A stretch of DNA of 64,000 bases from NCBI GenBank assembly GCA_026415035.1, contig JAOAHX010000008.1, forward strand, positions 16,270 through 80,269. The letters run 5' to 3'. Origin of the DNA: Thermodesulfobacteriota bacterium. GTDB lineage: Bacteria; Desulfobacterota; BSN033; UBA1163. The position numbers were made by a program, and so were the translations under genes. This document shows positions 2,014 to 64,000 of this stretch, in pieces. The notes beneath the pieces are model-generated. The model was not told the origin of the DNA. It worked only from the letters and a program-made list of their open reading frames with translations, and made no database searches. Every line of letters begins with the position of its first letter. The stretch's first letter is position 1.

Positions 2014-2514
2014 CTACCGAAGAAGTTCTTCGGCGGCCTTCCTCGTCGCCTCCATCCACCCTTCAAGGCTACCGGAGGCGGAAGTTTTCTGGACCGCCCT
2101 TCTCACCCTTCCGGTTTCGACTTCCACGAGCCTCAAATCGAGGCGCATCTGACCTCCGATGACCTGATAGCCGCCGAAGACCATCTGCTTCGCCCCGAGC
2201 ATTTTTCCCAGTCTCAGCCGGGTCGCTTCGTCGACCAAGGCGGTGGACCCCAGACGAAGCTCTTCAAGGGCAAGCAGAAGGCGCTGCCTCTCGACCACGA
2301 CATACTCCCTGCGCTCCTTCAGAAATTCGATGATCTTCCCGGCAAGGATTTCTCCCATGGGAAGCCTTGTCCCTTTGGCCGGGCTCAGATCATCGAGGTC
2401 CCAGACGGCGATCGTTTCTACCTTCTGCTCCCCCGGGGGGGAAGTGGCGCAGCCGGTCAGAATCCATAAGCCACACAAGAAAAAAATCGTCCCGGTCAGG
2501 TCTCTCTTCCTCAT
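2014..2514 (-). CDS. lipoprotein with CsgG/LpoB-like domain
   Basis: Lipobox LTGC after a signal peptide. Segments IAVWDLDDLS..., KIIEFLKERREYVVVERQRLLLALEELRLGSTALVD and LRLVEVETGRV follow the CsgG N-domain pattern. Confidence 0.6.
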   Translation of the reverse strand: MRKRDLTGTIFFLCGLWILTGCATSPPGEQKVETIAVWDLDDLSPAKGTRLPMGEILAGKIIEFLKERREYVVVERQRLLLALEELRLGSTALVDEATRLRLGKMLGAKQMVFGGYQVIGGQMRLDLRLVEVETGRVRRAVQKTSASGSLEGWMEATRKAAEELLR

Positions 2515-2518
2515 CGTC

Positions 2519-4474
2519 CTATCTCAATGCGACCTCCTCGGCCCTCTCCTGGACTTTGTCGTCTGTCCGGAAGGGCCGGGTCTGTTCGAGGATCTTGGCA
2601 TAGCTGAAATCTGGTTCGACCCGAACGACCTCCATCCGGCCCGCAGACTTGGGAGTGCCCCGTAGCGTCTTACCCTTATAGGTTATCTCTTCCCCTTCCT
2701 CGATCACTTCCAGTTTGGTTCCCACCACCATTCCATGTTTCGCCCCGAGATTGAGGACGACCTGGTCCCCCGTGACTTTGACGATATATCCCCTCAGAGG
2801 ATATTTGGTCACGACCGTCTTCAAAATCTCCCGATTCAGCTGAAAGAGTTCCTTTTCGAGAGAGGCTTGGGGAGGGATCTGTCGGGTGGTGACCTGCGGG
2901 ATGGCCGTGGTCTCGGTATCGATCAGCCTCAGATTGAGGAGCGTGCCCTGGGGGAGATAGAGGAGCGAGCCTGTGCCGATCAGCCTGGCCGCCAGAACCC
3001 GCCCCAATTTAAGGGCGGTCTCCGGATTGGCCAGTTCGGACGAGCCGATGTTCAGCTCCTCAAGGAGGCGGTCGATCAAAATCCTTTCGACGACCTTGAC
3101 CCTTCCGGAGGCATTGAGATGGTCCGCCAACTGACTCATCAGCACGGCTGAAAGACCATCTCTTTCGGCAAGGCCTCCCCTTTCCTGAAAATCGACAAAG
3201 GTCAGCACCATAGGGGGAGACGTCCAGGCGTCTTCGACCTTCCTGGCCTCTTCCTTTTGTGCCCTGAAGCGGGCGGCCAGCTCCTTCACAAGTTGATCGA
3301 CCCGTTCTTTTCGTTTGAGGTCTTTCTGAAGATCGATCATCTCCTGGGCCTTTTTGGCAAGGACGGCGGCAAAGGTGTCCGTCTTATCGAGGGCCAGGGC
3401 CATCCGGTAGGATTCGAGGGCCTGATCCCATTTGCCCTCTTTTTCAAAAGTCAACCCCTTATTGGTCGTCCCTTCGATATAATAAGGATCGATCTGGATC
3501 GCCTGGTCGTAGAATTCTCGAGCTTTACCATATTGTCCCGCGTTGGCGTAATAGCGTCCCATTTGATTGTAGCGGAGGGCCTCCTGATAGGGTTCGACGG
3601 TCTTTTTCTGTATCCCCTTCTGATATTCCGTCTCGGCCTCCTTCCTCTTATCCTGGGCGTAAAGCAGGTCGCCCTTGACGACGTGGACATAGGCTCGATC
3701 AGGGGCCTTCTGCTCGACCTCCCTCGCCAGCTGAAGGGCCTTTTCGGATTCCCCCTTCTTCGCATAGACCGTGGCGAGCCCCTCTTTGCCAAGGATCTCT
3801 CCCTGGCCACCCTTTTGAGAGACCTCTTTGAAGACCTCCTCAGCCTCCTTCAGGTTCTGCTCTTTGAGGGCCGCATAGCCCTTAACGGTCTGGGCTTTCA
3901 CGTTCTGGGGATTCTTCTTCACGACATCGTCGCTGATGGCCTTGGCAAGCTTGGTCTGCCTCCTCTGGAGCTCCCTTTCGGCGACCCGAACGAGCATCGC
4001 CTCCGTCGTCTTTCCCCCTCCCTGGAAGTAGTCGAGGACCTTCAGGCCTGGACCGAGGATACAAACCGTGGGAAGGACCTGCCGGGCCCGGTAAAGGTCG
4101 CTCACCTTGGCAACGTCCTGCAGAACCGGGAAGAGGATCCCCGTGCTTTCGACGAATTTCGAGACCTTCTCCCTGGAGGAGAGGGTGATGGCCCATACCG
4201 TCATCGACGCTTCCTGATGTTGTCTGGCAAGCTGGTGGAGGGTGAAGAGCCCCTCCTGGCTGGGCCGGGAGTCGACATCGAAAAAGTAGAGGATCACCAT
4301 CGATCGGTCCTTCAGCATCGAGAGGTCATGGACTTGGCCTTTCAGGTCTTTCAACGAGAAGGTGGGGGCGCTCTGGCCCGGTGCGACCTGTCCATAGCTT
4401 ACGGGCATGCCCAAGATCAGGAAGACCGTTACCGACATCAAGAAGCGACCCAGGTTGAGCACTGGCTTTTTCAT
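2519..4474 (-). CDS. secreted multidomain protein: thioredoxin/AhpC-TSA-like N-domain, TPR repeats, CsgG/LpoB-like domain, C-terminal beta domain
   Basis: Signal peptide MKKPVLNLGRFLMSVTVFLILG. FSLKDLKGQVHDLSMLKDRSMVILYFF is Trx-fold (AhpC/TSA)-like. The central region has Ala/Tyr-rich TPR-like repeats (YAKKGESEKALQLAREV...YYANAGQYGKAREFYDQAIQIDP). LSAVLMSQLADHLNASGRVKVVERILIDRLLEELNIGSSELAN and LRLIDTETTAI are CsgG-like. Confidence 0.65.
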   Translation of the reverse strand: MKKPVLNLGRFLMSVTVFLILGMPVSYGQVAPGQSAPTFSLKDLKGQVHDLSMLKDRSMVILYFFDVDSRPSQEGLFTLHQLARQHQEASMTVWAITLSSREKVSKFVESTGILFPVLQDVAKVSDLYRARQVLPTVCILGPGLKVLDYFQGGGKTTEAMLVRVAERELQRRQTKLAKAISDDVVKKNPQNVKAQTVKGYAALKEQNLKEAEEVFKEVSQKGGQGEILGKEGLATVYAKKGESEKALQLAREVEQKAPDRAYVHVVKGDLLYAQDKRKEAETEYQKGIQKKTVEPYQEALRYNQMGRYYANAGQYGKAREFYDQAIQIDPYYIEGTTNKGLTFEKEGKWDQALESYRMALALDKTDTFAAVLAKKAQEMIDLQKDLKRKERVDQLVKELAARFRAQKEEARKVEDAWTSPPMVLTFVDFQERGGLAERDGLSAVLMSQLADHLNASGRVKVVERILIDRLLEELNIGSSELANPETALKLGRVLAARLIGTGSLLYLPQGTLLNLRLIDTETTAIPQVTTRQIPPQASLEKELFQLNREILKTVVTKYPLRGYIVKVTGDQVVLNLGAKHGMVVGTKLEVIEEGEEITYKGKTLRGTPKSAGRMEVVRVEPDFSYAKILEQTRPFRTDDKVQERAEEVALR

Positions 4475-4486
4475 AAACTCCCTCCC

Positions 4487-5671
4487 TCATCTATTCCCTT
4501 CGCGGATGGGAATCAACCGCACCTGCAAAGGGGTTTCTCCTTCCTCGGTGATCTGGACCTGCGCCTCCCAGTCGTGGTGGTCTGGATGGGTGATCCGAAC
4601 CTCATGCTTGCCGACCGGAAGGCTCAAGGTTAAAGGGGCATTCCCTTTAAAAGCACCGTCGATGAAGACCTGTGCTCCGAGGGGATGACTCTCGATCCTC
4701 AACGAGCCCAGGAGGACCTTTTCCACGACATCCGGTTTCGACCCTTTCGAAGTGACAAACCAATAGCCTGTCCCCCCCAGGCCCAAAAGCATCAGAACCA
4801 ATATCAGCATGGGGAGAAAGCGCGATCTCGCCCCTTTCTCCTCTTGGGAGACGGAGGGCTTCTCTTCGACCGATTCCAGCAAGGCCCGGGCCAGGGCAGA
4901 ACCCGTTTGGAAGCGTTCCTCCGGCCCCTTTTTGAGGCATCTCAAAATGGTTTGAGACAGTTTCGGGGGAATGGACGGGTTGATCTGGGAAGGCTCGGGA
5001 GGATGGGCCTGGACGATGGCCTGGAAGATGGCCGACATATTTTCGCCCACAAAGGGCCTCTGACGGGTGGCCAGTTCGTAGAGCACGATGCCCAAAGAGA
5101 AGAGGTCCGAACGGCCATCCACCGGACGCCCCTGGACCTGCTCTGGCGACATGTAGGCTGGGGTGCCCAGGATCTCCCCGGCTTGCGTCTGAACCAGGGC
5201 CGAAGGGTCTTCGATGTGGGCGATTCCGAAATCGGTGATCTTGATCTGGCCGTCTTTTTGGAGGAGGATGTTGCTCGGTTTCACATCCCTGTGGACGATC
5301 CCCTTCTGATGGGCATAACCGAGGGTTTCGGCGATCTGGGCCCCCCAACGGGCGATCTCCTGAAAAGAGACCTTTCCCTCCTGAACCACCCGATTTAGCG
5401 GGATCCCTTCGAGGAGCTCCATGGCGATGAAGATGGTCCCATGGTCTTCCCCTACATCATAGATCGTCACGATGTTCGGGTGGGAAAGCCTGCCGATCGC
5501 CCTGGCTTCTTTCAGAAAGCGTTGGACAAAGGCCTCGCTGGTGACCCGGTCTTCCCGGAGCACCTTGAGGGCGATGGACCGGTCGATCTGGGGATCGTAC
5601 GCCTTATAGACGACCCCCATCGACCCTTTGCCCAGCTCTTCGATAATCTCGTAACGGCCGTATTTCATCAA
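4487..5671 (-). CDS. Ser/Thr protein kinase (Hanks-type) with TM segment and extracytoplasmic PEGA-like domain
   Basis: Kinase motifs are present: LGKGSMGVVYKA (Gly loop), ALK (VAIK-like), HRDVKPSNILL (catalytic loop), DFG, SPEQ. A Pro-rich linker leads to a TM helix (RFLPMLILVLMLLGLGGTGYWFV), then LGSLRIESHPLGAQVFIDGAFKGNAPLTLSLPVGKHEVRI, which is PEGA-like. Confidence 0.85.
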   Translation of the reverse strand: MMKYGRYEIIEELGKGSMGVVYKAYDPQIDRSIALKVLREDRVTSEAFVQRFLKEARAIGRLSHPNIVTIYDVGEDHGTIFIAMELLEGIPLNRVVQEGKVSFQEIARWGAQIAETLGYAHQKGIVHRDVKPSNILLQKDGQIKITDFGIAHIEDPSALVQTQAGEILGTPAYMSPEQVQGRPVDGRSDLFSLGIVLYELATRQRPFVGENMSAIFQAIVQAHPPEPSQINPSIPPKLSQTILRCLKKGPEERFQTGSALARALLESVEEKPSVSQEEKGARSRFLPMLILVLMLLGLGGTGYWFVTSKGSKPDVVEKVLLGSLRIESHPLGAQVFIDGAFKGNAPLTLSLPVGKHEVRITHPDHHDWEAQVQITEEGETPLQVRLIPIREGNR

Positions 5672-5674
5672 GGG

Positions 5675-6631
5675 TCAATCCTTCATGAAGTCCGCGAGGG
5701 TGGAGACGGGGATGAGAAACCCGATCCCCGAAACCCCCCGATACCTCCCCTTGATCATCCCCACCAAATGCCCTTCACGGTCAAAGACGGGGCTTCCGCT
5801 GCTTCCCGGTTGAATCTCCATTTCCGCCTGATAAAGGGGAAGATCATTGACCCACCTCATGGGGCCGTCGATCGTACCGGTGAGGAAGCGTCTCGTATGA
5901 TTGGGACAGCCGAGGGCGAAGATTTTATCTCCGTGTTGGAGGGGTCTCCGAATGGGCGAAAGGGGAACCGAGACATTCCATTTCGAGCGGATATCGATCA
6001 GAGTCAGATCCCGGCGGGGATCGATCTTCTTGATGGAACCCCGTAGGATCCGTCCATCCGGAAGGGTGACCGAGACCTCCGAGATGCCTTTGAGATCGTG
6101 CGCGGTGGATAGGATGAGGCCTTTGCGGTCCGCGACGAAGCCGGTAAACTGCATCGTTTCCTTCCCGTTGGAGACGCCCAGACAGACCAGGGCCTCCATT
6201 TTCTGCTGGACTTTCTGTGGAATCGTCTCAGAAACTTTCTCGGAGGCTCTCGGACATTCTTCTTTGAATTGGCCCTCAAGAAAGGCCTCAAGGTCAGCCA
6301 GGACCTCCTCCGAAGTTCTCATCTCCCCTTCCCCACGAAGGACCTGGACCTGGGTGGCTAAGGCCGATTTCGGCCTGAGGACGAGGACCAACACCTCCTT
6401 CTCTTTTTTGATTCCCCTGAGGTGAATCTCCAACCCTTCCCTCTCCTGTCGGTGAACCTCTAAGCCCCCTTGGAGAAGCCATCGGACGAGGAGATGCTCG
6501 ATCTCTCTTACGGGAAGGGGGAGAAGCTTCTCTTCGGCCCGAGGGAAAACAGGGCTCGCGGAGAAGATCAAGAGGAGCCAGAGGAGAACAGCCCGACATC
6601 GGTTCGGCCTCACCTTTCCTCCATCTCGCAC
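5675..6631 (-). CDS. secreted trypsin-like serine peptidase (S1 family)
   Basis: Signal peptide is present. LILSTAHDL carries the catalytic His context and GSSGSPVFDREGHLVGM is the GDSGGP-like Ser motif. The 5' end overlaps the 3' end of the PP2C gene by about 22 nt. Confidence 0.7.
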   Translation of the reverse strand: MRDGGKVRPNRCRAVLLWLLLIFSASPVFPRAEEKLLPLPVREIEHLLVRWLLQGGLEVHRQEREGLEIHLRGIKKEKEVLVLVLRPKSALATQVQVLRGEGEMRTSEEVLADLEAFLEGQFKEECPRASEKVSETIPQKVQQKMEALVCLGVSNGKETMQFTGFVADRKGLILSTAHDLKGISEVSVTLPDGRILRGSIKKIDPRRDLTLIDIRSKWNVSVPLSPIRRPLQHGDKIFALGCPNHTRRFLTGTIDGPMRWVNDLPLYQAEMEIQPGSSGSPVFDREGHLVGMIKGRYRGVSGIGFLIPVSTLADFMKD

Positions 6632-7344
6632 AAGACCACGGTGATATTGTCCTTTCCCCCTGCGGCCTTGGCCAGATCGATCAGGCCCTCCCCTTTTTGA
6701 TCGAGGCGGAGGGAGGAGTGGAGGAGGTTCAAGATTTCATCATCCTCCACCATATCGGTCAACCCATCCGAGCAGAGCAGAAAGAGGTCGCCCGGAAAGA
6801 CCCTCCCTCTGATCAAATCCAAGGCTAAGGCCTCTTCAATGCCAACGGCCCGGAGGATGACGTGCCGCATGGGATGGTGTTTTGCCTCCTCTTTCTGGAG
6901 CAGCCCCTGATCGATCTGTGCCTGAAGATAAGAGTGGTCCCGGGTCAGCTGTCTCAATTCTCCTTTTCTCAGGAGGTAGGTCCGGCTATCGCCCACATGG
7001 CCTAAGACGTAGGTCTGATTCGAGAAGGTGATCAGTTCTGCCGTGCAACCGAGGCCCTGATGATGGGGATGGGTGGCCGAATATTTCAGGATCTTTTCAT
7101 TGGCAAGCTGGAAGGCCTTTTGGACCGACCTGGAGCTCTCCTCTCCGGGGCGTAGGATTGAGGTGGAAAAGACCTCGAGGGCGGTATCGATAAAGATTTG
7201 GCTTGCGACTTCCCCTGCGGCCGCCCCCCCCATGCCATCGGCAACCACAAAGAGATTTAATTCGGGTTTTATGAGGAAGGCGTCTTCGTTGTTGGCCCGT
7301 TTCAAGCCCGGATCGGACCTGCCGTAAGACCGTATTTCAAACAT
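6610..7344 (-). CDS. PP2C-family Ser/Thr protein phosphatase
   Basis: GRSDPGLKRANNEDAF, VADGMGGAAAGEVAS, LCSDGL and GGKDNITVVL are the canonical PPM/PP2C motifs. Confidence 0.85.
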   Translation of the reverse strand: MFEIRSYGRSDPGLKRANNEDAFLIKPELNLFVVADGMGGAAAGEVASQIFIDTALEVFSTSILRPGEESSRSVQKAFQLANEKILKYSATHPHHQGLGCTAELITFSNQTYVLGHVGDSRTYLLRKGELRQLTRDHSYLQAQIDQGLLQKEEAKHHPMRHVILRAVGIEEALALDLIRGRVFPGDLFLLCSDGLTDMVEDDEILNLLHSSLRLDQKGEGLIDLAKAAGGKDNITVVLCEMEER

Positions 7345-7428
7345 GACTCATTATACAAAAATTGTCTCTGTATTGGCAATAATTTTTCTTGACCCGGGGG
7401 ACGGGTTGGTTATAATTTATTCGGACCG

Positions 7429-8313
7429 ATGAAGAAAGCCCCGTTAATCATAGCCCAATTTTTCCACATCAAAGGGCCCTTGCCTGTGAACGGGAAGGAG
7501 GCGGAGTTTTCGAGCCCTTCCATCACCATCGGCCGACATCCCTCGAGCCAGCTCCGTTTTCCCGGAGATCTCACCTATATCTCCCGCCAGCATGCCGAGA
7601 TCGTCCGCGAGGGCAATCAATTTAAGCTGATCGATCACAGCACCAACGGCACCTACGTGAATGGGAAAAGGGTGAAGGAGATTTTCCTGAAAGACGGAGA
7701 TGTCCTGATGTTCGGCGAGGGAGGGCCTCAGGTGAGTTTCCTCACCCGGATGGCAGAGGGGAGCCTCGAAAGCGAGGCGGTGCCCGTCCCACCCCCTCGT
7801 GTGACCGAAAAGGAGGTTGGAGGAGAGCCGCCCCGGATCGAGAAACCTTCCATACCCTCCCCACCTCCCGAACCAAAGATTTCGGAGGTCTCCCCTCAGG
7901 TGGTTAAAGTACCGCTGATCATCCAGTACGGACCCACCATCCGCTCTTTCAAACAATTACCCGTCACCATCGGAAAAGGCCCTGCCTGCGACTATCCCTT
8001 GGAACATCCCGCCCTCCATGACCAACACGCCCAGATTTTTTTCAGCGAGGGCCAATACTACGTCAGAGACCTGACCGGCCAGAAATTGGTCCATATCGAC
8101 CGAAGGCCCATCGACTTCCAGGCCCCTTTAAAGGCAAGCGACGAACTGGCACTGACCCCCCAAGGACCCTTCTTTCGATTCTTCGGCGAGGGCCGCCTGG
8201 GCGAGGTGGAGGAAGTCAAAGAGGAAGCGCCTATGGAGGCCCCAAAGACTTCCCCGGAGCCATCGGAAGAAAAATCTGTCCTTTCGAAGTTAAAAAAGAT
8301 CTTTAAATCCTGA
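7429..8313 (+). CDS. protein with two FHA domains
   Basis: ITIGRHPSSQLRF...ISRQHAEIVREGNQFKLIDHSTNGTYVNGKRV and VTIGKGPACDYPL...AQIFFSEGQYYVRDLTGQKLVHIDRRPI are both FHA signatures. A Pro-rich linker sits between them. The gene is divergent from the kinase/phosphatase operon. Confidence 0.8.
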   Translation: MKKAPLIIAQFFHIKGPLPVNGKEAEFSSPSITIGRHPSSQLRFPGDLTYISRQHAEIVREGNQFKLIDHSTNGTYVNGKRVKEIFLKDGDVLMFGEGGPQVSFLTRMAEGSLESEAVPVPPPRVTEKEVGGEPPRIEKPSIPSPPPEPKISEVSPQVVKVPLIIQYGPTIRSFKQLPVTIGKGPACDYPLEHPALHDQHAQIFFSEGQYYVRDLTGQKLVHIDRRPIDFQAPLKASDELALTPQGPFFRFFGEGRLGEVEEVKEEAPMEAPKTSPEPSEEKSVLSKLKKIFKS

Positions 8314-8347
8314 TCCGGGAGCCGGCCCCTCCCCGCAGGAGGTCACG

Positions 8348-9913
8348 ATGTCCATTCCCTCACTCCCCTTCAAGGTCCTGGCCTTGGGCCCTTTTGTCCC
8401 CTCGGGAGAGGAGGTCATGTTTCGGGACCCGATTCGGGTCGATCCCGAGCAGCCCGATCAGGCCATCGAAGCCCTCCATCTCCAGCTTTCCATCGCCCTT
8501 CCCGGGAACCTCTGCGCCTGGGATCGACTTGCTTTCCCTATCCGGAGGTTAAAGGACTTCCACCCAGACTCCCTCCTCGAACACCATTCCTCTCTCAAGA
8601 ATCTCCTCGATGCGAAAAGGCTCGTTCACACCTCGAAGGCCCAGGGACTGCCTGACGAAGAGGTCTATCGCCAACTCCAAAACTGGCCAGACCTTCCATT
8701 CGACCTCCGCCCTCCTCCCTCCCGGACCCAGGAACACGCCTCAAGCCCGGTGGACCGTCTCTTAGAGATGGTCGCCATGCCCGGGGAGGAAACTGCCTCC
8801 CCGGCAGCCGCTGTGCCTCTTTCAACCCAGATCGATTCATTCCTCCAACAGGTCTTGAGGCAGATCTTCTCCGACCCCGAATTCCGAAAGGTAGAATCGA
8901 CTCACCAAGGCCTCCACTTCCTCCTGAGGCAAGCCAAATCGGAGAAGGAGGTCGCTTTCGAAATCCTCCCGGTCTCCTTTGAAACCCTTGAGGAGATCCT
9001 CGATCATCTCACCCTCTCGAAGCTCGACGACCTGCCCTCCCTGGTCATTCTCGACCTCCCCTTTGACCACTCGATGAGGAAATTGGAACTCCTTGAAAAA
9101 GTGGCCCTCTTTTCCGAAACCCTCCTCGTCCCCACGCTCTGCTGGGTGAGCCCCAAATTTCTCTTTCTCGAACGTTGGGAGGAGATGGACAAGCTCCCGT
9201 TCCTCCCCCACTATATCGATGAGCCCGCTTTTGCCAAATGGCGACGCCTGAGAGGGCTCACCTCCTCGAGATGGATCGGCCTTTTCTGCAATCGATTTTT
9301 GATCCGATATCCCTATGGCCCGGACAATCGGGTGCGATCCCTGCCCTTCACCGAATCTGATCCCCTTTGGATCTCTCCCGTATGGGCTGCCGCCAGCCTC
9401 ATCCTCCTCAGCCATCTCCAATTCGGCTGGCCCACCCGATTCACCGACTGGCAGAGCCTTCGGTTGACCGATTTAGCCACCCATCTCATAGGGAACGACC
9501 GGGGGATTGCGACCGAGGCCGATTTCGGTGACGAGAGGATCGACCAGCTGATCCGGATCGGGATCATTCCGCTGGCCTCGTTTCTGAACCGAGACATTGC
9601 CTTTATTCCCCGTGAGACAACGGCTGGAGGAACGGCCTTGAGCTGGCAACTCTTCCTCTCCAGGACCTCTCAATTCCTACTCGGGTGCCGGGATCATCTC
9701 GGATCGGATCTCTCTCCCTCCACCCTCGAAGAGAAGCTGAGGGAGGCCTTCCTTCGGTTCTATGAACGATCTGGCCGCCAGTTTCCCCAATCCCTTGAAA
9801 TCACAGCGAAGCGACCGGCCCCTGGAGAGCCTATCCAATTGAGAATTCGAATCGACCCCCCCAAACAGATTTTACCTTCAGGAGAGAGACTCGAGCTGGA
9901 ATTGCGCTGGTGA
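8348..9913 (+). CDS. 521-aa protein with a TssB(VipA/ImpB)-like N-terminal region fused to an uncharacterized ~390-aa C-terminal region
   Basis: N-terminal LPFKVLALGPF..., LHLQLSIALPGNL and PIRRLKDFHPDSLLEHHSSLKNLLDAKRL parallel the TssB family motifs LPLKLLVLGDF, RLSLSVP and FRSLKDFSPDAV...ELRKLLELR. The C-terminal region has no motif I can name. A GGAGG RBS precedes the ATG. Confidence 0.6.
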   Translation: MSIPSLPFKVLALGPFVPSGEEVMFRDPIRVDPEQPDQAIEALHLQLSIALPGNLCAWDRLAFPIRRLKDFHPDSLLEHHSSLKNLLDAKRLVHTSKAQGLPDEEVYRQLQNWPDLPFDLRPPPSRTQEHASSPVDRLLEMVAMPGEETASPAAAVPLSTQIDSFLQQVLRQIFSDPEFRKVESTHQGLHFLLRQAKSEKEVAFEILPVSFETLEEILDHLTLSKLDDLPSLVILDLPFDHSMRKLELLEKVALFSETLLVPTLCWVSPKFLFLERWEEMDKLPFLPHYIDEPAFAKWRRLRGLTSSRWIGLFCNRFLIRYPYGPDNRVRSLPFTESDPLWISPVWAAASLILLSHLQFGWPTRFTDWQSLRLTDLATHLIGNDRGIATEADFGDERIDQLIRIGIIPLASFLNRDIAFIPRETTAGGTALSWQLFLSRTSQFLLGCRDHLGSDLSPSTLEEKLREAFLRFYERSGRQFPQSLEITAKRPAPGEPIQLRIRIDPPKQILPSGERLELELRW

Positions 9914-9974
9914 AGGGGATTGTGATCCCAAGTTTGACACCCCATCGGGCCATGTGATATAAATTTCTATAGGC

Positions 9975-10130
9975 ATTCAGGAGAGGGAACCCCGTGAGAG
10001 TCGGGGACGGCCACGCCGCTGTGATCGGGGACGAAACCTGCCGAAGACCACTGGTCTTTGAATAAAAGACTGGGAAGGGGCAGGGAGGCCCAAAGGACGT
10101 TGGGCCGAGTAGGTCGATCCGTCAGTCAGA
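9975..10130 (+). promoter_or_regulatory. cobalamin (B12) riboswitch aptamer
   Basis: GGGAACCCCGTGAGAGTCGGGGACGGCCACGCCGCTGTGA matches the GGGAAnnnGGUGnAAnUCC...CCCGCCaCUGU core. ACCACTGG ... GGGAAGGGGC matches the B12 box. The 3' element is CAGTCAGAAAACCTGCC. It lies upstream of tonB and the B12-type ABC importer. Confidence 0.75.
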
Positions 10131-10202
10131 AAACCTGCCTGGATGCGCTTCACGCATAGGTCTTCGGTGGAAGGCTGTGAAGGGTCATTTAAAATAAAAA
10201 AA

Positions 10203-10234
10203 CCCGCTCTTTCTTCCGAAGAGCGGGTTTTTTT
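10203..10234 (+). terminator. intrinsic terminator (riboswitch expression platform)
   Basis: Stem CCCGCTCTT, loop TCTTCCG, stem AAGAGCGGG, followed by TTTTTTT. Located between the aptamer and the tonB start codon. Confidence 0.7.
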
Positions 10235-10256
10235 ATGCCACCTTAGAATTCGCAAC

Positions 10257-11977: not shown

Positions 11978-12009
11978 CCCTTCCAAGAAGTTGGCTCGGA
12001 TAGAGACCG

Positions 12010-59266: not shown

Positions 59267-59647
59267 ATGAACCGTGAGCAACGCCTTCAGGAAGAAGAGC
59301 GGCTCGCCCTTTATCGAATCCTTAAAGGAATTCTCGAGCATTGGCGAGCCGAGTTAAAACAACAGGAAGAGGAATTTACGGAAACCGTCGTCCTTTCTCC
59401 AGGCAGGGGTGGACGGCCAGCCGTTGCCTCTGAGTCGGAAACCCCGATCGAGGGGGAGGTTCTTACGGCCACCGTCATCCTGCCGTCTCAGAGAGGCCCC
59501 ATAACCCCTCCTGCCGTTGCGGAGGCAGAGGGGCGCATCGCGGAGCCAACCGAACCCCAAAAGGGGAAGCATCCCGAGACGGAAGAGTGTCTCGAAGAGA
59601 CCGTGATCCTTAAGCCCAAAACGCCTAAGGGAAAAGGAATTGGATAG
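59267..59647 (+). CDS. hypothetical protein, first gene of T6SS-linked operon
   Basis: 126-aa ORF with coding-like composition, Glu-rich N-terminus and Pro-rich C-terminus. Overlaps the next gene by 8 nt. Confidence 0.45.
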   Translation: MNREQRLQEEERLALYRILKGILEHWRAELKQQEEEFTETVVLSPGRGGRPAVASESETPIEGEVLTATVILPSQRGPITPPAVAEAEGRIAEPTEPQKGKHPETEECLEETVILKPKTPKGKGIG

Positions 59648-60380
59648 GGCCCTCTCGCTCGAACGGTTGACGGAAGAAGTCCAAACGATCTATCGATCCC
59701 TTCCAGAAGGGGCAGAGGAGGCGATAGAGGCCTATCTTCGTAACGCCCTAAAAAGCCAATCCACCGAAGACCGATTGGCCTTGCTCGAGGCCCTGGTCCG
59801 ACAGTTCGAGACGCCCTCTCCTCCTCCGTCCCAAGAGGGCCACCCTCTTCCCGAAGAAATCTCCCGCCTGTTTTCGCTCCTCTTCGGGCAGAGGATCCCG
59901 AAGGCCGGGCTCACTTCTCCAGACTTACTCGAAGAACTGGCCCATGTCCTCAATACCCTCTTCGACACCTTGAACGAGATCATCCGGACCATCGACACAA
60001 CCCTGCTTGGTAAGAGGCCAGAGCTCGAGACCATCCGGCACATCATCGGAAAGCAGCTGACCGCCGAGGTCCCCCCCGAACCCCTTCAACAATATCTCTC
60101 CAGGATCCAAGAGGCCTTTTTGATCTCTCACAAGGCCTTCCAGGAGGCCGCCCAGACCAAACTCGGAGAACTGCTGGAGGAGCTCAGCCCGCAACGCTTT
60201 GAGTCGGAGCCCGTGGATCGGTTCAAGATCGGCCCCCTACGGAAGGCCGAATTCTTTGAACGGTACAAGGAAAAATTTCTCACCTTAAAGAAATGGTTCG
60301 AGTCGGGCCGTTTCAGAGAAGAGCTCTTGAGAGAGTTTGAGAAATCGTGCCAGAAGCTCTATGATGCTAAACGGAGGTAG
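59640..60380 (+). CDS. hypothetical helical protein, T6SS-linked
   Basis: 246 aa, predicted mostly helical. Lies immediately upstream of tssJ in the same orientation. Confidence 0.5.
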   Translation: MDRALSLERLTEEVQTIYRSLPEGAEEAIEAYLRNALKSQSTEDRLALLEALVRQFETPSPPPSQEGHPLPEEISRLFSLLFGQRIPKAGLTSPDLLEELAHVLNTLFDTLNEIIRTIDTTLLGKRPELETIRHIIGKQLTAEVPPEPLQQYLSRIQEAFLISHKAFQEAAQTKLGELLEELSPQRFESEPVDRFKIGPLRKAEFFERYKEKFLTLKKWFESGRFREELLREFEKSCQKLYDAKRR

Positions 60381-60384
60381 AACG

Positions 60385-60921
60385 ATGAATCTGAGGACCC
60401 TGTGGATCTTCTCTCTCGTCGCCTGTTTGGTCCTTTCCTCCTGCGCTACCGTCGTCATCCCGCCGAGCTGGGAGTATGAACCCAATGCGATCCGCCTCAA
60501 CCTGAAAAGCGATGCCCAGCTCAATCTCTTCCAAGGGAGGGCCCATACCCTCGTCCTCTGTGTCTATCTCTTATCCGACCCCAATGAACTCAACCAGCTT
60601 GTGGACGAAAGAGGTGGCCTCGAAAAGCTCTGCGAATGCACCAAGTTTCATCCCAGCGTGACCTTTGCGAAACGGTTTATCATCCATCCGAATCGGGAGT
60701 ATAAGGAGACCCTGGACCGCGCGGCGGGGGCAAAGTATGTGGCCCTCGTGGCCGGATACTTCAAACTCCAGAAGGAGAATGTGGTCAAGCTCTACTCGAT
60801 TCCGATCGTGGAGGAGAAGAAGAAGGGCAATATCTATCAGAAGCCCGGCCCCCTCTCGATCGATCTCTACCTGGGATCCCAACAACTTCAGGATACGAAA
60901 CCCGCTCCAGAGAAAAAGTGA
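60385..60921 (+). CDS. tssJ: type VI secretion lipoprotein TssJ-like
   Basis: GGAGG RBS. Lipobox LSSC. Size (~178 aa) and position directly upstream of tssK-tssL-tssM. Start placed at MNLRT (60385). Confidence 0.7.
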   Translation: MNLRTLWIFSLVACLVLSSCATVVIPPSWEYEPNAIRLNLKSDAQLNLFQGRAHTLVLCVYLLSDPNELNQLVDERGGLEKLCECTKFHPSVTFAKRFIIHPNREYKETLDRAAGAKYVALVAGYFKLQKENVVKLYSIPIVEEKKKGNIYQKPGPLSIDLYLGSQQLQDTKPAPEKK

Positions 60922-61008
60922 CCCTGCTCTGAATCAAGGCTAAGGAGACATTCCGTTCCCCTTCTTCAAAGGGAATCCTTCGAGACGGGGGAGAAGGAGA
61001 CAACACGC

Positions 61009-62397
61009 ATGGAGATTCAAAGACCCCTCTTCTGGCATCAAGGGCTCTTCCTCCAGCCCCAGCATTTCCAGCTGTTAGACCTTTCCTTCCAATCGCTCCT
61101 CATCCCCTTTCACCAATTCATGGAACCCCATTTCTGGGGGGTGGGCGAGGTGGAGATCCATAAGGCCGGACTGGGGTTGAGAACGTTCAATCTCCTCAAA
61201 GGCTCCTTCCTCTTCCCAGACGGCACCTTTGTCGTCTTTCCTGGGAATGGGATCGTCGAGGCCAGGTCTTTCCACGAGGCCTGGACCGACGGAGGAAAGC
61301 CCTTCACCGTCTTCATCGGACTGAAGAAGATGAACCCGGCAGGGGAGAACGTGACCGTCGTCGACACCTTGGAAAACCTCTCGAAGGTTACGACCCGATT
61401 CGTCACGACCCCCAACCCGGAGGAGGTGAGAGATCTTCACTCCGGAGGCCCCGTGGGGCAGGTCAAGAGGCTTTACTACCTCCTCAAGGTCTTCTGGGAG
61501 ACCGAAAGGGAGCAATTGGGAGATTATGTGCTCATCCCTGTCGCCCAGCTCGAAAGGATGGGCGAGGAGGTCCGGCTCTCACCGCGGTTCATCCCCCCCT
61601 GTTTGACCCTCTCCGGCTCCGAACCTCTTCTGCGTCTCATCAAAGAGATTCGGGACCAGCTGGCTTCAAGGGCCCACCAGCTCGAGGAGTATAAAAGCCA
61701 ACGGGGGGTCCACACGGCCGAGTTTGGTTCAAGGGATATGGTCTACCTCCTGGCCTTGCGGTCCCTGAACCGGTATGTGCCCCCTCTTTACCACGCGACC
61801 GAGGCCCAGCTGACCCATCCATGGGCGATCTATGGTCTGCTGAGGCAGTTGATCGGAGAGCTTTCGTCCTTTTCCGAGCGGATCAATGTCATGGGAGAGC
61901 AGGAGGATGGAACCCGGGCCCTCTTAGGATACGACCATCAGAATTTATGGGAGTGCTTCTCAACGGCCCAGGCTCTGATCGTCCAGCTTCTCGATGAGAT
62001 CACCGCCGGGCCAGAATACGTGATCCCCCTCGTTTATGACGGGACCTATTATGCCGCTTCCCTCAAGCCGACGATCTTCGAAGGCCGAAACCGCTTCTAC
62101 CTCGTCCTAAAGACCGAAGAGGACATGAAGTCGGTGGTGAAGTCGGTCGAGACGATGGCCAAGCTGAGCGCCCGGGAGCATTTGCCTATTTTGATCGCCC
62201 GTGCCCTTCCTGGCATCGGGCTGGAGCACCTTCCCGTTCCGCCCCAAGAGCTGCCCCGCAGGGCCCATTCGGTCTATTTTGCCGTCAATCACCACAGCGA
62301 CCAATGGTCGTTGGTTCAGAAGACCCATAACCTCGCCCTCTACTGGGATAATGCCCCGGAAGACCTGGAGGTGGAGTTGATGGTGGTGGGACGATAA
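61009..62397 (+). CDS. tssK: type VI secretion baseplate protein TssK
   Basis: N-terminal PLFWHQGLFLQPQHFQ is the hallmark of TssK. Length 462 aa. Confidence 0.85.
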   Translation: MEIQRPLFWHQGLFLQPQHFQLLDLSFQSLLIPFHQFMEPHFWGVGEVEIHKAGLGLRTFNLLKGSFLFPDGTFVVFPGNGIVEARSFHEAWTDGGKPFTVFIGLKKMNPAGENVTVVDTLENLSKVTTRFVTTPNPEEVRDLHSGGPVGQVKRLYYLLKVFWETEREQLGDYVLIPVAQLERMGEEVRLSPRFIPPCLTLSGSEPLLRLIKEIRDQLASRAHQLEEYKSQRGVHTAEFGSRDMVYLLALRSLNRYVPPLYHATEAQLTHPWAIYGLLRQLIGELSSFSERINVMGEQEDGTRALLGYDHQNLWECFSTAQALIVQLLDEITAGPEYVIPLVYDGTYYAASLKPTIFEGRNRFYLVLKTEEDMKSVVKSVETMAKLSAREHLPILIARALPGIGLEHLPVPPQELPRRAHSVYFAVNHHSDQWSLVQKTHNLALYWDNAPEDLEVELMVVGR

Positions 62398-62407
62398 GGA
62401 GAGATCT

Positions 62408-63085
62408 ATGCACCTCACTGATGCCTTCATGGAACTGGTGGCCTATGTGGTCTATTTCGTCAAGACAGCGGGGGCCAAACAGCCCCCTTATGAACAAGTC
62501 AAGGCCGACGTCCTGAGGCTTCTCAGCCAGAGCGAATCGGTGGTGAAGCGGGGTCTTTTTTCCCAGGAGGATTACGATCTGGCACGCTTCATGGTCTGTG
62601 CCTGGATCGATGAGGCGATCCTCAACTCCGATTGGAACCAAAAATCACAATGGCAGAGAGAGCCCCTCCAGCGCCTCTATTACCATACCCTCGAGGCCGG
62701 CGAGGAGGCCTTTGAACGGCTCAACCACCTCGGCCTTCACCAGAGGGACGTCCGGGAGGTTTACTACCTCTGTCTCGCCCTCGGGTTCAAGGGTCGATTT
62801 CACCATCCGGGCGATGAGCATCTCTTAGAACAGGTCAAGACCTCCAATCTGAAACTCCTTCTGGGTAGTTCGGTGGGCCTGCCTTCCCTGGAGAGGGCCG
62901 AACTCTTTCCGGAAGCCCACCCGGTCGAAGCCGTGGAGATCGGCCCCCAGAAAGGGAAGTTTCGATTCTCGGCCTTTACCCTCGCCTGCCTGGTCGGACC
63001 GGTGATTCTCTTCGGCCTTCTCTTTCTGATCTACCAGTTCGCCTTGGGCGGGGTGGGAGAAAATCTTCTTAAGGCGGTGCCGTAG
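62408..63085 (+). CDS. tssL: type VI secretion membrane protein TssL (DotU family)
   Basis: YYLCLALGFKGRF DotU motif and a single C-terminal TM (LACLVGPVILFGLLFLIY). Confidence 0.8.
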   Translation: MHLTDAFMELVAYVVYFVKTAGAKQPPYEQVKADVLRLLSQSESVVKRGLFSQEDYDLARFMVCAWIDEAILNSDWNQKSQWQREPLQRLYYHTLEAGEEAFERLNHLGLHQRDVREVYYLCLALGFKGRFHHPGDEHLLEQVKTSNLKLLLGSSVGLPSLERAELFPEAHPVEAVEIGPQKGKFRFSAFTLACLVGPVILFGLLFLIYQFALGGVGENLLKAVP

Positions 63086-64000
63086 ATGAAAACCCTACTC
63101 TTGAAATATCTGAAGTACGCCCTGATCGGAATGGCCTTCCTCTTCGTCATCCTGCTGGCCTTTGCTCTGGTCCTTCTCCTCAACTGGCCCTGGTGGATGG
63201 GGTTCTTCTTGGTCCTCTTCCTCCTCGCTCTGGGCGTCCTCTTCCTCCTTCTGAGAAAGATCTGGCTCAAACGGAGAGAGGAGAGGTTCGTCCAGCAGGT
63301 GATCGAGCAGGACGAATCGAACCTCAAGGCCCTATCGGGCAAGGAGAAAGACGACCTCAAGGAGCTGCAACTCCGATGGAAGGAGGCGGTGGAGGCCCTG
63401 AGGCGATCCCATCTGAGGAAGTATGGGAATCCCCTGTACGTCCTTCCCTGGTATATGGTGCTGGGAGAAAGCGGGTCGGGAAAGACGACGGCCATCACCA
63501 GTGCCCGCCTCTCTTCTCCCTTCGCCGAGGTGAGTCGAACCTCTGGGCTATCGGGAACCAAGAACGTCGATTGGTGGTTCTTCGAACAGGCCATCATCCT
63601 CGACACCGCAGGGAGGTACGCCATCCCCATCGATGAAGGACGAGACAAGGAGGAGTGGCAGAAATTCCTGTCGCTGCTCGTCCGATACCGGAGAAAGGAG
63701 CCCCTACACGGCCTGATCATTGCCGTGGCGGCCGATCGACTTCTCGAAGGTCGAGCCGAGGCCCTCGAAGAGGATGGGAAGCAGATTCGGCGCAGGATCG
63801 ACGAATTGATGAGGGTCCTCGGGGCCAAATTTCCCGTCTATGTCCTGGTGACTAAATGCGATCTGGTCCAGGGGATGACCCAGTTCTGCGAGCAGCTCCC
63901 GGAGAAGAGCCTCGACCAGCCCATGGGATACATCAACCAGGATCTCCAAACCGATGTGGTCACGGTGCTGGAGAAGGCCTTTCAGTCCATCGGTGAGCGC
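63086..64000 (+). CDS. tssM: type VI secretion membrane protein TssM (IcmF family), 3'-truncated by window end
   Basis: N-terminal TM hairpin, then LPWYMVLGESGSGKTT (Walker A) and DTAGRY. The ORF continues to the window end. TGATG-type coupling with tssL. Confidence 0.85.
   Translation, partial: MKTLLLKYLKYALIGMAFLFVILLAFALVLLLNWPWWMGFFLVLFLLALGVLFLLLRKIWLKRREERFVQQVIEQDESNLKALSGKEKDDLKELQLRWKEAVEALRRSHLRKYGNPLYVLPWYMVLGESGSGKTTAITSARLSSPFAEVSRTSGLSGTKNVDWWFFEQAIILDTAGRYAIPIDEGRDKEEWQKFLSLLVRYRRKEPLHGLIIAVAADRLLEGRAEALEEDGKQIRRRIDELMRVLGAKFPVYVLVTKCDLVQGMTQFCEQLPEKSLDQPMGYINQDLQTDVVTVLEKAFQSIGER

What the first reader, a model, noticed from the sequence alone, without database searches (positions are those of the whole stretch)
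8348..9913. FHA-adjacent 521-aa protein with a TssB (T6SS small sheath subunit)-like N-terminus fused to an unknown ~390-aa region
The first ~110 aa carry three segments that parallel the TssB/VipA family: LPFKVLALGPF versus LPLKLLVLGDF, LHLQLSIALPGNL versus RLSLSVPNRL, and PIRRLKDFHPDSLLEHHSSLKNLLDAKRL versus FRSLKDFSPDAV..ELRKLLELR. Canonical TssB is about 170 aa and separate from the ~490-aa TssC. Here one polypeptide of 521 aa follows an fha gene and a PpkA/PppA-like kinase/phosphatase pair. That is the gene neighbourhood of T6SS sheath genes in many clusters. Two readings are possible. It could be a compact single-chain TssB-TssC-like sheath protomer. Or it could be a TssB-derived domain recruited to a different machine. 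Either would be unusual. The C-terminal region has no motif I can confidently assign.
Basis: partly seen in the sequence, partly recalled or inferred. Interest (0 to 1): 0.7.

Follow-up and report, generated by a model that had tools for sequence, protein, structure and literature searches.

The report
Fused extra copy of T6SS sheath
This gene encodes the two type VI secretion sheath proteins (TssB and TssC) joined into one trimmed chain; it sits next to a phosphorylation-signalling module and exists alongside a normal T6SS, so it is most likely an undescribed accessory or regulatory part rather than the contractile sheath itself.

Summary
The ORF at 8348-9913 (+) is real and encodes 521 aa. 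The "unknown" remainder is TssC-like (Pfam VipB E 3e-34). A confident AlphaFold model (pLDDT 89) superposes on VipB/TssC chains (Foldseek E 7e-18). So the protein is a natural single-chain TssB-TssC.

It is not the machine's sheath. Three related contigs carry a complete canonical T6SS with separate TssB (161 aa) and TssC (493-495 aa). On one of them the FHA/fusion pair is seen at the cluster's edge. On a second it lies about 7.7 kb beyond the end of the fetched T6SS locus. The window itself holds tssJ-K-L-M at 60.3-64 kb.

The family has at least 86 non-redundant loci, mostly Desulfobacterota MAGs. Members always start inside the TssB N-terminal linker, so they lack the strand that canonical TssB donates to a neighbouring protomer. 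Several TssC loops are also missing.

A dual-FHA gene lies directly upstream in about 58 of 61 loci. Ser/Thr kinase, PP2C and two unknown proteins (C3, C8) recur nearby.

Best reading: a sheath-derived T6SS accessory factor under threonine-phosphorylation control. No paper describing it was found. It is a new variant of a known kind. Interest 0.6.

The parts
8348..9913 (+). Gene for the 521-aa single-chain TssB-TssC paralogue (stop codon 9911-9913)
   Evidence: ORF and translation. Pfam VipA plus VipB. AlphaFold pLDDT 89.1, pTM 0.88. Foldseek top hits are VipB/TssC chains, E 7e-18 to 8e-13, TM 0.64-0.73 normalised by target length. 100% identical to MCX8117578.1.
8348..8680 (+). TssB/VipA-like part (residues 1-111). 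It starts inside the VipA N-terminal linker, so the donor beta-strand is absent.
   Evidence: Residues 5-8 (SLPF) align to VipA 28-31 (ELPL). The VipA linker AEVELPL lies right after residue 25 (PMC5797969). All 55 aligned family members start at this point. The alignment with canonical TssB shows about 30 missing residues, including the ERVNIVYR strand.
8681..8818 (+). Flexible inter-domain linker (residues 112-157). It holds a Ser/Thr-rich patch and one conserved helix at residues 135-146 (nt 8750-8785), VDRLLEMVAMPG.
   Evidence: pLDDT is below 50 at residues 127-132 and 143-154. The helix region is the best-conserved piece of the linker (mean identity 0.72, measured over residues 134-145, versus 0.41-0.54 for the flanks). 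At least two Ser/Thr occur in the 8 residues before it in 52 of 55 sequences. It corresponds to one of the two helices in the flexible N-terminal 60 residues of TssC. Which one is ambiguous.
8819..9910 (+). TssC/VipB-like body (residues 158-521), including the C-terminal helices and three beta-strands, with several canonical loops deleted
   Evidence: Pfam VipB covers residues 232-420. hhalign against 41 canonical TssC sequences gives probability 100, E 1.8e-44, reaching the last strand. Deletions: the SGLYKxVYxxEYGQFGG loop, about 20 aa before the C-terminal helices, and about 8 aa.
8337..8342 (+). Shine-Dalgarno sequence AGGAGG, 5 nt before the ATG
   Evidence: Read directly from the sequence.
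7429..8313 (+). Partner gene: 294-aa protein with two FHA domains and no T6SS_FHA_C domain
   Evidence: Pfam FHA E 5e-31, two stretches. An FHA gene lies directly upstream on the same strand in about 58 of 61 non-redundant loci that have enough upstream sequence. The two genes overlap by 4 bp in L011, L013 and L014.
7350..7416 (.). Back-to-back promoter-like sites in the PP2C/FHA intergenic region
   Evidence: TTGACC-16-TATAAT on the plus strand (7389-7416) and TTGCCA-18-TATAAT on the minus strand (7379-7350), each matching 11 of 12 positions. These are consensus matches only.
6610..7344 (-). PP2C-type Ser/Thr phosphatase
   Evidence: Pfam PP2C E 2e-16. Present in 41 of 86 loci.
5675..6631 (-). 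Trypsin-like serine protease
   Evidence: Pfam Trypsin_2 E 9e-19. Present in 20 of 86 loci.
4487..5671 (-). Ser/Thr protein kinase with a C-terminal PEGA domain
   Evidence: Pfam Pkinase E 2e-58 and PEGA E 9e-16. Present in 36 of 86 loci.
2014..4474 (-). Two envelope proteins: an AhpC/TSA + TPR + CsgG-like/FlgT_C protein (2519-4474) and a small CsgG-like protein (2014-2514). They are candidate sensors feeding the kinase.
   Evidence: Pfam. The same block occurs in L001, L002, L005, L006 and others. The sensor role is inferred.
59640..64000 (+). Start of the genome's canonical T6SS cluster: a 246-aa protein with a weak T6SS_FHA_C match (59640-60380), TssJ (60337-60921), TssK (61009-62397), TssL (62408-63085) and TssM (63086 to the window end)
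   Evidence: Pfam SciN E 1e-14, VasE E 2.5e-109, DotU E 3e-39, T6SS_FHA_C 22.5 bits against a 23.7 cut-off. The TssM N-terminus with Walker A GESGSGKT was read from the sequence. ClpV of the same 112,781-bp contig is MCX8117639.1, 61 accession numbers after the fusion.

Best explanation
The gene encodes an accessory paralogue of the T6SS sheath. TssB and TssC are fused into one chain, and the chain is trimmed. It has lost the N-terminal donor strand of TssB, one of the two N-terminal TssC helices and several loops.

Shown: it has the sheath fold. In three related genomes it co-exists with a complete canonical T6SS that has its own separate TssB and TssC. It is almost always the gene immediately after a dual-FHA gene, next to a Ser/Thr kinase and a PP2C phosphatase. 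Two unknown proteins (C3, C8) are its usual downstream neighbours.

Inferred: envelope sensors (CsgG-like, TPR/AhpC, protease) activate the kinase. Phospho-threonine signalling through the FHA protein then controls this sheath-like protein. The protein docks onto T6SS parts through its retained sheath surfaces. Candidate targets are the canonical sheath end, the baseplate or ClpV.

It cannot donate an N-terminal arm. It therefore cannot propagate the interlaced sheath mesh on its own. It more likely acts at one defined place or step, such as nucleating, capping or gating sheath assembly or disassembly, than as the bulk contractile polymer.
For: Fold and domains.

Canonical TssB (161 aa) and TssC (493-495 aa, VipB+VipB_2) were found with TssM, TagF, TssA, Hcp, TssE, TssF, TssG, ClpV and VgrG in three places. 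L019 also shows the fusion at its edge. L020 is on the same contig as L006.

Window: tssJKLM lies at 60.3-64 kb. ClpV is 61 coding sequences after the fusion, which fits TssM-TagF-TssA-TssB-TssC-Hcp(x1-2)-TssE-F-G in between. Canonical TssB and TssC hit nothing else in the window.

Missing donor strand.

Strong conservation: 34 invariant columns across 55 sequences that are down to 43% identical. 489 cluster representatives at E<=1e-30.

Synteny over 86 non-redundant loci: FHA directly upstream in about 58 of 61, and C8 or C3 directly downstream in 41 of 62. C3 and C8 homologues also flank the distant long-fusion class.

A conserved exposed helix with a Ser/Thr-rich patch lies in the disordered linker.

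From the literature: TagH/Fha1 is the phospho-dependent trigger of T6SS assembly, and ClpV is listed as its partner in Pseudomonas (PMC13584744).
Against: No experiment exists, and nothing shows binding to any T6SS part.

In many loci no T6SS gene lies within 10 kb. In the window the module is 50 kb from the T6SS. A T6SS-independent role is therefore not excluded.

The presence of separate tssB and tssC in the window's own genome is inferred from accession arithmetic and synteny. It was not seen directly.

The assignment of the conserved helix to the ClpV-binding helix is ambiguous. Direct profile alignment puts it on TssC helix 2. Alignment via the long fusions puts it on helix 1.

No invariant threonine was found in the linker.

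Loss of the N-terminal arm does not by itself prove inability to polymerise.
Confidence: 0.55

Rival explanations
1. It is a true polymerising sheath subunit. It would be a compact single-chain sheath that builds a second or alternative contractile sheath, or co-polymerises along the whole length with TssB/TssC.
For: The full sheath fold is retained, including the C-terminal strands. Phage and pyocin sheaths are single chains, so fusion is compatible with a sheath (established knowledge; PMC5797969). ClpV, VgrG and Hcp are available in the same genomes.
Against: Every family member lacks the TssB N-terminal strand and most of the linker. In V. cholerae this linker ties protomers together, and its exact length is critical for contraction. 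Canonical tssB and tssC are kept in the same cluster. No second set of hcp, tssE, tssF, tssG or tssK accompanies it. Its constant partners are FHA, kinase, phosphatase, C3 and C8, not structural genes. It scores far below the NCBIfam TssB and TssC equivalog cut-offs.
Confidence: 0.15
2. It is a soluble decoy or inhibitor. As a sheath mimic it titrates ClpV, or free TssB/TssC, or blocks the growing sheath end, until phosphorylation relieves it. This is an accessory role opposite in sign to a nucleator.
For: The linker carries an exposed conserved helix resembling the N-terminal TssC helices, one of which is the ClpV docking site in canonical systems (PMC5048182). A protomer that can accept but not donate an arm is a plausible chain blocker (inference). 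TagF-type repression shows that T6SS loci do carry dedicated inhibitors.
Against: The helix assignment is ambiguous. No data distinguish activation from inhibition. This is a variant of the best explanation rather than a separate kind of thing.
Confidence: 0.15
3. It has been co-opted for a T6SS-independent job. It would be the output or scaffold of an envelope-stress Ser/Thr signalling module (FHA, kinase, PP2C, LysM-TPR, polysaccharide deacetylase, CsgG-like proteins), and only historically derived from the sheath.
For: The most constant neighbours are signalling and envelope proteins, not T6SS core genes. Only 12 of 86 loci show T6SS-related genes within the fetched flanks. In the window it lies 50 kb from the T6SS, with housekeeping genes in between. 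L014 has type II secretion/PilS-type genes and no T6SS genes nearby.
Against: In about ten loci VgrG/DUF2169/DUF3540/PAAR-like genes start right after C3. Most fetched loci are too short to judge.
Confidence: 0.15
4. It is a decaying relic of a duplicated tssBC pair and has no function.
For: It is shorter than TssB+TssC and has lost canonical motifs. One relative, L007, keeps only a 289-aa 3' fragment.
Against: The ORF is intact with a strong RBS. Length is conserved at about 521 aa. There are 34 invariant columns and family-specific motifs across sequences down to 43% identity. Hundreds of cluster representatives exist. Synteny is conserved. The structure prediction is confident.
Confidence: 0.03

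Closest known systems
Canonical T6SS sheath TssB/TssC (VipA/VipB, HsiB/HsiC, IglA/IglB)
   Same: Same fold and domain order. Pfam VipA and VipB both match above threshold. Best structural matches are 3j9g, 5n8n, 5urw/5urx, 5myu and 9n4v. The C-terminal helices and beta-strands are retained.
   Different: One polypeptide instead of two. About 140 aa shorter. It has no TssB N-terminal donor strand, only one of the two TssC N-terminal helices, and deletions of the SGLYK...GQFGG loop and others. It is only about 26-29% identical to the canonical TssB and TssC of related genomes (L019, L020). It is far below the NCBIfam equivalog cut-offs. It co-exists with real TssB/TssC.
Threonine phosphorylation pathway of T6SS (TagE/PpkA, TagG/PppA, TagH/Fha1, TagQRST) as in the P. 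aeruginosa H1-T6SS
   Same: An FHA protein, a Hanks-type kinase with an extracytoplasmic domain, a PP2C phosphatase and envelope lipoprotein/TPR proteins are encoded together and linked to a T6SS.
   Different: The FHA protein has two FHA domains and lacks the T6SS_FHA_C domain. A separate protein with a weak FHA_C match sits in the fha1 position before tssJ. No sheath-like protein is part of the described pathway (PMC13584744).
Long TssB-TssC fusions (600-655 aa) from other uncultured bacteria, e.g. Zixibacteria (uncharacterised)
   Same: Same fusion order. They lie at the edge of T6SS loci, with kinase, polysaccharide deacetylase, TPR and AhpC neighbours. A C3 or C8 homologue sits next door.
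   Different: They keep nearly full-length VipA and VipB profiles and both TssC N-terminal helices. They are closer to canonical TssC. No FHA gene was adjacent in the two loci seen.
Minor paralogues of contractile-machine structural proteins: the extra sheath proteins of extracellular contractile injection systems (Afp/Pvc type) and the minor Hcp proteins of Bacteroidales T6SS
   Same: The concept matches: a diverged copy of a major structural protein encoded beside the main one. The eCIS point is from my own knowledge. The minor Hcp point rests on PMC13213661, seen only as title and abstract.
   Different: No such extra sheath copy has been described for a T6SS in the papers I could search. 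Fold similarity to eCIS sheaths is much weaker (TM 0.3-0.4).
Single-chain sheath proteins of phages and R-type pyocins
   Same: They have one chain running from an N-terminal arm to a C-terminal arm, which is the topology the fusion recreates (PMC5797969).
   Different: Those proteins keep both arms. The fusion lacks the N-terminal one and carries the T6SS-specific sequence families. Matches to phage sheaths are only E 1e-6 to 1e-3.

Membership tests
TssB / VipA (small sheath subunit) | Matches Pfam PF05591 above the gathering score | tested here: met
   28.0 bits against a 24 cut-off, residues 6-93 on profile positions 26-120 of 155.
TssB / VipA (small sheath subunit) | Reaches the NCBIfam equivalog cut-off (TIGR03358) | tested here: not met
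   24.8 bits against a 97.25 cut-off.
TssB / VipA (small sheath subunit) | N-terminal beta-strand plus linker that is donated to a neighbouring protomer | tested here: not met
   The protein starts at the position of VipA residue ~24-28. An in-frame stop upstream excludes an extension. The same holds in all 55 aligned relatives.
TssB / VipA (small sheath subunit) | Separate polypeptide of about 160-170 aa encoded just before tssC | tested here: not met
   Fused in frame to the TssC-like part.
TssC / VipB (large sheath subunit) | Matches Pfam PF05943 above the gathering score | tested here: met
   118.8 bits against a 27 cut-off, but only profile positions 93-294 of 301 in the best stretch.
TssC / VipB (large sheath subunit) | C-terminal gpW/gp25-like domain (PF18945 VipB_2) | tested here: inconclusive
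   No Pfam hit. The profile alignment and the model do show the two helices and three strands that correspond to it.
TssC / VipB (large sheath subunit) | Reaches the NCBIfam equivalog cut-off (TIGR03355) | tested here: not met
   107.6 bits against a 271.5 cut-off.
TssC / VipB (large sheath subunit) | Sheath fold | tested here: met
   Foldseek E 7e-18 to 8e-13, TM 0.64-0.73 normalised by target length, rmsd 3.4-3.8 A to most of the top VipB/TssC/IglB chains (7-10 A for 5n8n_B, 5ojq_A and 5mxn).
TssC / VipB (large sheath subunit) | N-terminal helix that recruits ClpV | tested here: inconclusive
   One conserved helix is kept in the disordered linker. Profile alignments disagree on whether it equals TssC helix 1, the ClpV site, or helix 2 (PMC5048182).
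TssC / VipB (large sheath subunit) | Polymerises with TssB around Hcp and contracts | not testable with these tools
   Needs purification and EM, or live imaging.
T6SS core sheath (being the sheath of its locus) | Is the only tssB/tssC equivalent of the T6SS cluster | tested here: not met
   Separate TssB (161 aa) and TssC (493-495 aa) are present in L019, L020 and L104. For the window's genome this is inferred from gene counts.
T6SS threonine phosphorylation pathway (TagE/TagG/TagH) | FHA protein, Hanks kinase and PP2C phosphatase encoded together and linked to a T6SS | tested here: met
T6SS threonine phosphorylation pathway (TagE/TagG/TagH) | The FHA protein has the TagH architecture (FHA plus T6SS_FHA_C) | tested here: not met
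   Two FHA domains and no FHA_C. A weak FHA_C match sits in a different protein at 59640-60380.
T6SS threonine phosphorylation pathway (TagE/TagG/TagH) | Phospho-threonine dependent binding or activation | not testable with these tools
   Needs kinase assays and phosphoproteomics.

The most novel reading that the evidence does not exclude
The family is a new class of T6SS component: a "minor sheath" protein that cannot propagate the sheath lattice. Together with the unknown proteins C3 and C8, and under FHA/kinase/phosphatase control, it would form a special layer or plug at one end of the canonical TssBC sheath. This would physically couple phospho-threonine signalling to the start or end of sheath polymerisation, or to ClpV-driven recycling.
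Probability: 0.3. Interest if true: 0.75.

Novelty: new variant of a known kind. Interest (0 to 1): 0.6.

Why it matters
How the threonine-phosphorylation pathway turns a chemical signal into sheath assembly at one spot is still unclear for T6SS. This family places a sheath-derived protein directly beside the FHA reader of that pathway. If it is the missing physical link, or a capping or nucleating ring, it would be a new type of T6SS accessory factor.

It would also show that T6SS, like extracellular contractile injection systems, can use more than one kind of sheath protein.

The natural single-chain form is useful in itself. It shows that TssB and TssC tolerate fusion and heavy trimming, which helps structural and engineering work.

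On the practical side, databases currently label these proteins "contractile sheath large subunit" or "ImpC". That label would mislead automated T6SS calling in Desulfobacterota.

Tried and rejected
- Exact-sequence look-ups of three window ORFs and of P0001 found nothing. The window's contig is not in the position index, or my start codons differ. I could therefore not read the rest of the contig, and used protein accession numbers instead.
- The look-up of ClpV P0125 returned a different contig that starts at ClpV, so it added little.
- The AlphaFold-database fold library was not available.
- I first thought a sub-lineage lacked the FHA gene. This came from my greedy ORF picking: an over-extended fusion ORF masked the FHA ORF. 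tblastn restored FHA in all but L076, L098 and the truncated L007.
- I first read the conserved linker helix as the ClpV-binding helix, based on a MAFFT alignment. Profile-profile alignments disagree, so I downgraded this to "possible".
- C3 and C8 gave no Pfam hit beyond a sub-threshold SPOR match, and no PDB profile hit. They are not related to each other (hhalign probability 0.1).
- Four literature searches found no paper on a natural TssB-TssC fusion or an extra T6SS sheath copy.
- The "sole compact sheath" reading was rejected because canonical tssB/tssC are present in relatives.
- The "pseudogene" reading was rejected on conservation.
Full report
**The observation**

The ORF at 8348-9913 (+) exists and encodes 521 aa. 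A consensus Shine-Dalgarno sequence (AGGAGG, 8337-8342) lies five bases before the ATG. An in-frame TAA at 8291-8293 leaves no room for a longer N-terminus.

The N-terminal TssB resemblance is statistically real. Pfam T6SS_VipA matches residues 6-93 at 28 bits against a 24-bit cut-off. The first 131 residues find M. xanthus TssB in the PDB at E 0.001. VipA and IglA align at the same positions, though only weakly (E about 0.4).

Pfam VipB gives E 3.2e-34. Sequence hits to TssC/VipB/EvpB chains reach E 2.8e-18.

An AlphaFold model built on 55 homologues is confident (pLDDT 89.1, pTM 0.88). Its best PDB matches are the large sheath subunits of V. cholerae, P. aeruginosa, M. xanthus, Francisella and Azotobacter. 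These score E 7e-18 to 8e-13, with TM 0.64-0.73 normalised by the target. The protein is therefore a natural single-chain TssB-TssC.

**The surroundings in the window**

Directly upstream, on the same strand, is a 294-aa protein with two FHA domains (7429-8313). Divergently transcribed from it are four genes:
- a PP2C phosphatase (6610-7344);
- a trypsin-like protease (5675-6631);
- a Ser/Thr kinase with a PEGA domain (4487-5671);
- two envelope proteins with AhpC/TPR/CsgG-like domains (2014-4474).

The intergenic region holds two near-consensus back-to-back promoter-like sites.

Downstream, a cobalamin riboswitch at 9930-10157 (77 bits) opens an unrelated TonB/BtuF/BtuC/BtuD-type operon. The fusion gene is therefore the last gene of its unit. 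The region from 14 to 59 kb holds housekeeping and other genes unrelated to T6SS.

At the far end of the window a canonical T6SS cluster begins:
- a 246-aa protein with a weak T6SS_FHA_C match (59640-60380);
- TssJ (60337-60921);
- TssK (61009-62397);
- TssL (62408-63085);
- TssM, from 63086 to the window end, with the Walker A motif GESGSGKT.

Canonical TssB and TssC from relatives hit nothing in the window except the fusion gene itself.

**Is it the sheath of that T6SS?**

The evidence says no.

The protein is identical to MCX8117578.1, from a 112,781-bp contig of a Desulfobacterota MAG. A ClpV/TssH from a contig of the same length and organism label is MCX8117639.1, 61 coding sequences later. 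My gene count places TssM about 51 genes after the fusion. That leaves room for nine or ten genes before ClpV.

Relatives have exactly that number of genes there. In L019, L020 and L104 the order is TssM, TagF, TssA, TssB (161 aa), TssC (493-495 aa, VipB plus VipB_2), Hcp (one or two copies), TssE, TssF, TssG, ClpV, VgrG.

The position of the fusion relative to these clusters differs between the three:
- L019 is the continuation of L002. It shows the FHA/fusion pair convergent with the end of that cluster, about 7 kb past ClpV.
- L020 is on the same contig as L006, whose module is arranged like the window's. There the fusion lies about 7.7 kb beyond the last gene of the fetched T6SS locus, some 18 kb from ClpV.
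It matches the 48,218-bp contig that carries P0031.

So the fusion co-exists with a normal sheath gene pair. For the window's own genome this remains an inference, because I could not read beyond the window.

**The family**

The word-index search returned 247 relatives. Nearly all of the 120 listed are about 520 aa long and carry both Pfam domains; a few are fragments. Where named, they come from Desulfobacterota, Syntrophaceae, Desulfobacteraceae or Syntrophobacteria MAGs.

The exhaustive profile search found 489 cluster representatives at E<=1e-30. These include a shorter class (about 465-500 aa) and a long class (600-655 aa). The long class keeps almost full VipA and VipB profiles.

Across 55 sequences that are down to 43% identical there are 34 invariant columns and several family-specific tryptophan-rich motifs. 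That argues for a functional protein, not a relic.

I collected 86 non-redundant loci:
- An FHA gene lies directly upstream in all but L076, L098 and a truncated copy in L007, out of about 61 loci with enough upstream sequence. In L011, L013 and L014 the two genes overlap by four bases.
- Directly downstream, on the other strand, is one of two unknown proteins, C8 (24 loci) or C3 (17 loci), out of 62 loci.
- PP2C occurs in 41 loci, the kinase in 36 and a LysM-TPR protein in 30. A polysaccharide deacetylase also recurs.
- In about ten loci a VgrG/DUF2169/DUF3540/PAAR-like block starts right after C3.

Homologues of C3 and C8 also sit beside the distantly related long fusions (E 4e-68 and 1e-49). 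These two proteins therefore look like real partners. Both are absent from the window, and they match nothing in Pfam or the PDB.

**Anatomy compared with the canonical sheath**

In V. cholerae the sheath mesh is held together by N- and C-terminal linkers. The VipA N-terminal linker AEVELPL follows residue 25, and adding two residues to it abolishes contraction (PMC5797969).

The fusion begins MSIPSLPF, with SLPF aligned to VipA 28-31 (ELPL). It therefore starts inside that linker and lacks the preceding donor strand (ERVNIVYR in the canonical TssB of relatives). Every family member starts at this point.

After the TssB-like part comes a low-confidence linker (residues 112-157). It contains a Ser/Thr-rich patch, present in 52 of 55 sequences. 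It also contains one conserved helix, VDRLLEMVAMPG, which is the best-conserved piece of the linker.

Canonical TssC has two helices in its flexible first 60 residues. The first of them is the ClpV docking site (PMC5048182). A direct profile alignment puts the fusion's helix on TssC helix 2. Alignment through the long fusions puts it on helix 1. ClpV binding is therefore possible but not established.

The TssC-like body lacks the conserved SGLYKxVYxxEYGQFGG loop and two further segments. It keeps the C-terminal helices and strands through to the last strand.

**Interpretation**

The shown facts are these:
- the protein has the sheath fold;
- it lacks the N-terminal donor arm;
- it co-exists with canonical TssB/TssC in relatives;
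- it is tightly linked to an FHA gene and to Ser/Thr kinase and phosphatase genes;
- it has conserved unknown partners.

From these I infer a T6SS accessory factor derived from the sheath and controlled by a threonine-phosphorylation pathway. That pathway would be analogous to TagQRST-PpkA-PppA-Fha1, which triggers T6SS assembly in P. aeruginosa (PMC13584744).

Because it can accept but not donate an N-terminal arm, I expect it to act at a single place or step. Examples are seeding, capping or gating the canonical sheath, or engaging ClpV. I do not expect it to form the bulk polymer.

The rivals are:
- a true second sheath, made unlikely by the missing arm and the lack of a second structural gene set;
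- a decoy or inhibitor, which is a sign-reversed variant of the same idea;
- a T6SS-independent signalling role, not excluded because many loci show no T6SS gene within 10 kb;
- a relic, which is very unlikely.

**Novelty**

Databases already label these proteins "type VI secretion system contractile sheath large subunit", "ImpC" or both ImpB and ImpC. The domain fusion is therefore visible in existing annotation.

I found no paper that describes a natural TssB-TssC fusion, an extra sheath copy in a T6SS, or a sheath-like member of the phosphorylation pathway. I rate it a new variant of a known kind, of clear interest to T6SS specialists. It is limited by the absence of any experiment and by its occurrence in mostly uncultured bacteria.

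Noticed in passing
window 9930-10157 (+): A cobalamin riboswitch (Rfam RF00174, 77 bits, full length) lies immediately after the fusion gene. It leads a TonB / periplasmic binding protein / FecCD permease / ABC ATPase operon at 10143-13850, probably for B12 uptake.
   Followed up: partly
window 59267-60380 (+): The gene in the position that fha1 occupies in the H1-T6SS, just before tssJ, encodes only a weak T6SS_FHA_C-like C-terminal region (22.5 bits against a 23.7 cut-off) and no FHA domain. The small ORF before it (59267-59647, different frame, 8-nt overlap) has no domain hit. This could be a TagH whose FHA part has been lost or split off, or a frameshift in the assembly.
   Followed up: partly
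L007 10001-10957 (uncultured Syntrophorhabdus MAG, CAYZFX010000001.1): The closest genome-collection relative (75% identity) keeps only the last ~320 codons of the fusion gene (called as a 289-aa ORF). The same TonB/ABC-transporter genes follow as in the window. FHA, PP2C, kinase and sensor genes are gone. This looks like a deletion remnant.
   Followed up: partly
e.g. L004 10274-11050 (-), L012 12755-13525 (-), L022 3659-4465 (+), L021 11947-12720 (+): Two unrelated conserved proteins of unknown function, C3 (~258 aa) and C8 (~255 aa), are the usual downstream neighbours of the fusion gene. They also flank the distant long-fusion class. They have no Pfam or PDB match, and neither is present in the 64-kb window.
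   Followed up: partly
P0358, P0406, P0362 and others; loci L021 10001-11899 and L022 1647-3557: A separate class of 600-655-aa TssB-TssC fusions keeps nearly full VipA and VipB profiles and both TssC N-terminal helices. One source names Candidatus Zixiibacteriota. In the one locus with room to see it (L021) they lie at the edge of a T6SS locus (VgrG, ClpV); across the two loci the neighbours include kinase, deacetylase, TPR and AhpC genes, and no adjacent FHA gene was seen.
   Followed up: partly
window 7350-7416: Two back-to-back promoter-like sites, each matching 11 of 12 consensus positions, lie between the PP2C and FHA genes. Each -10 box ends only 6-13 nt before the respective start codon, so the transcripts would be nearly leaderless, or the true start codons lie further in.
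   Followed up: no
L005 11708-13243, L012 11767-12702, L087 (ORF after the fusion): Some relatives carry a second FHA-domain gene directly after the fusion gene, in addition to the one before it.
   Followed up: no
L104 17967-18522 (-): A HicA/HicB toxin-antitoxin pair sits among the effector-side genes after VgrG/PAAR in one related T6SS locus.
   Followed up: no
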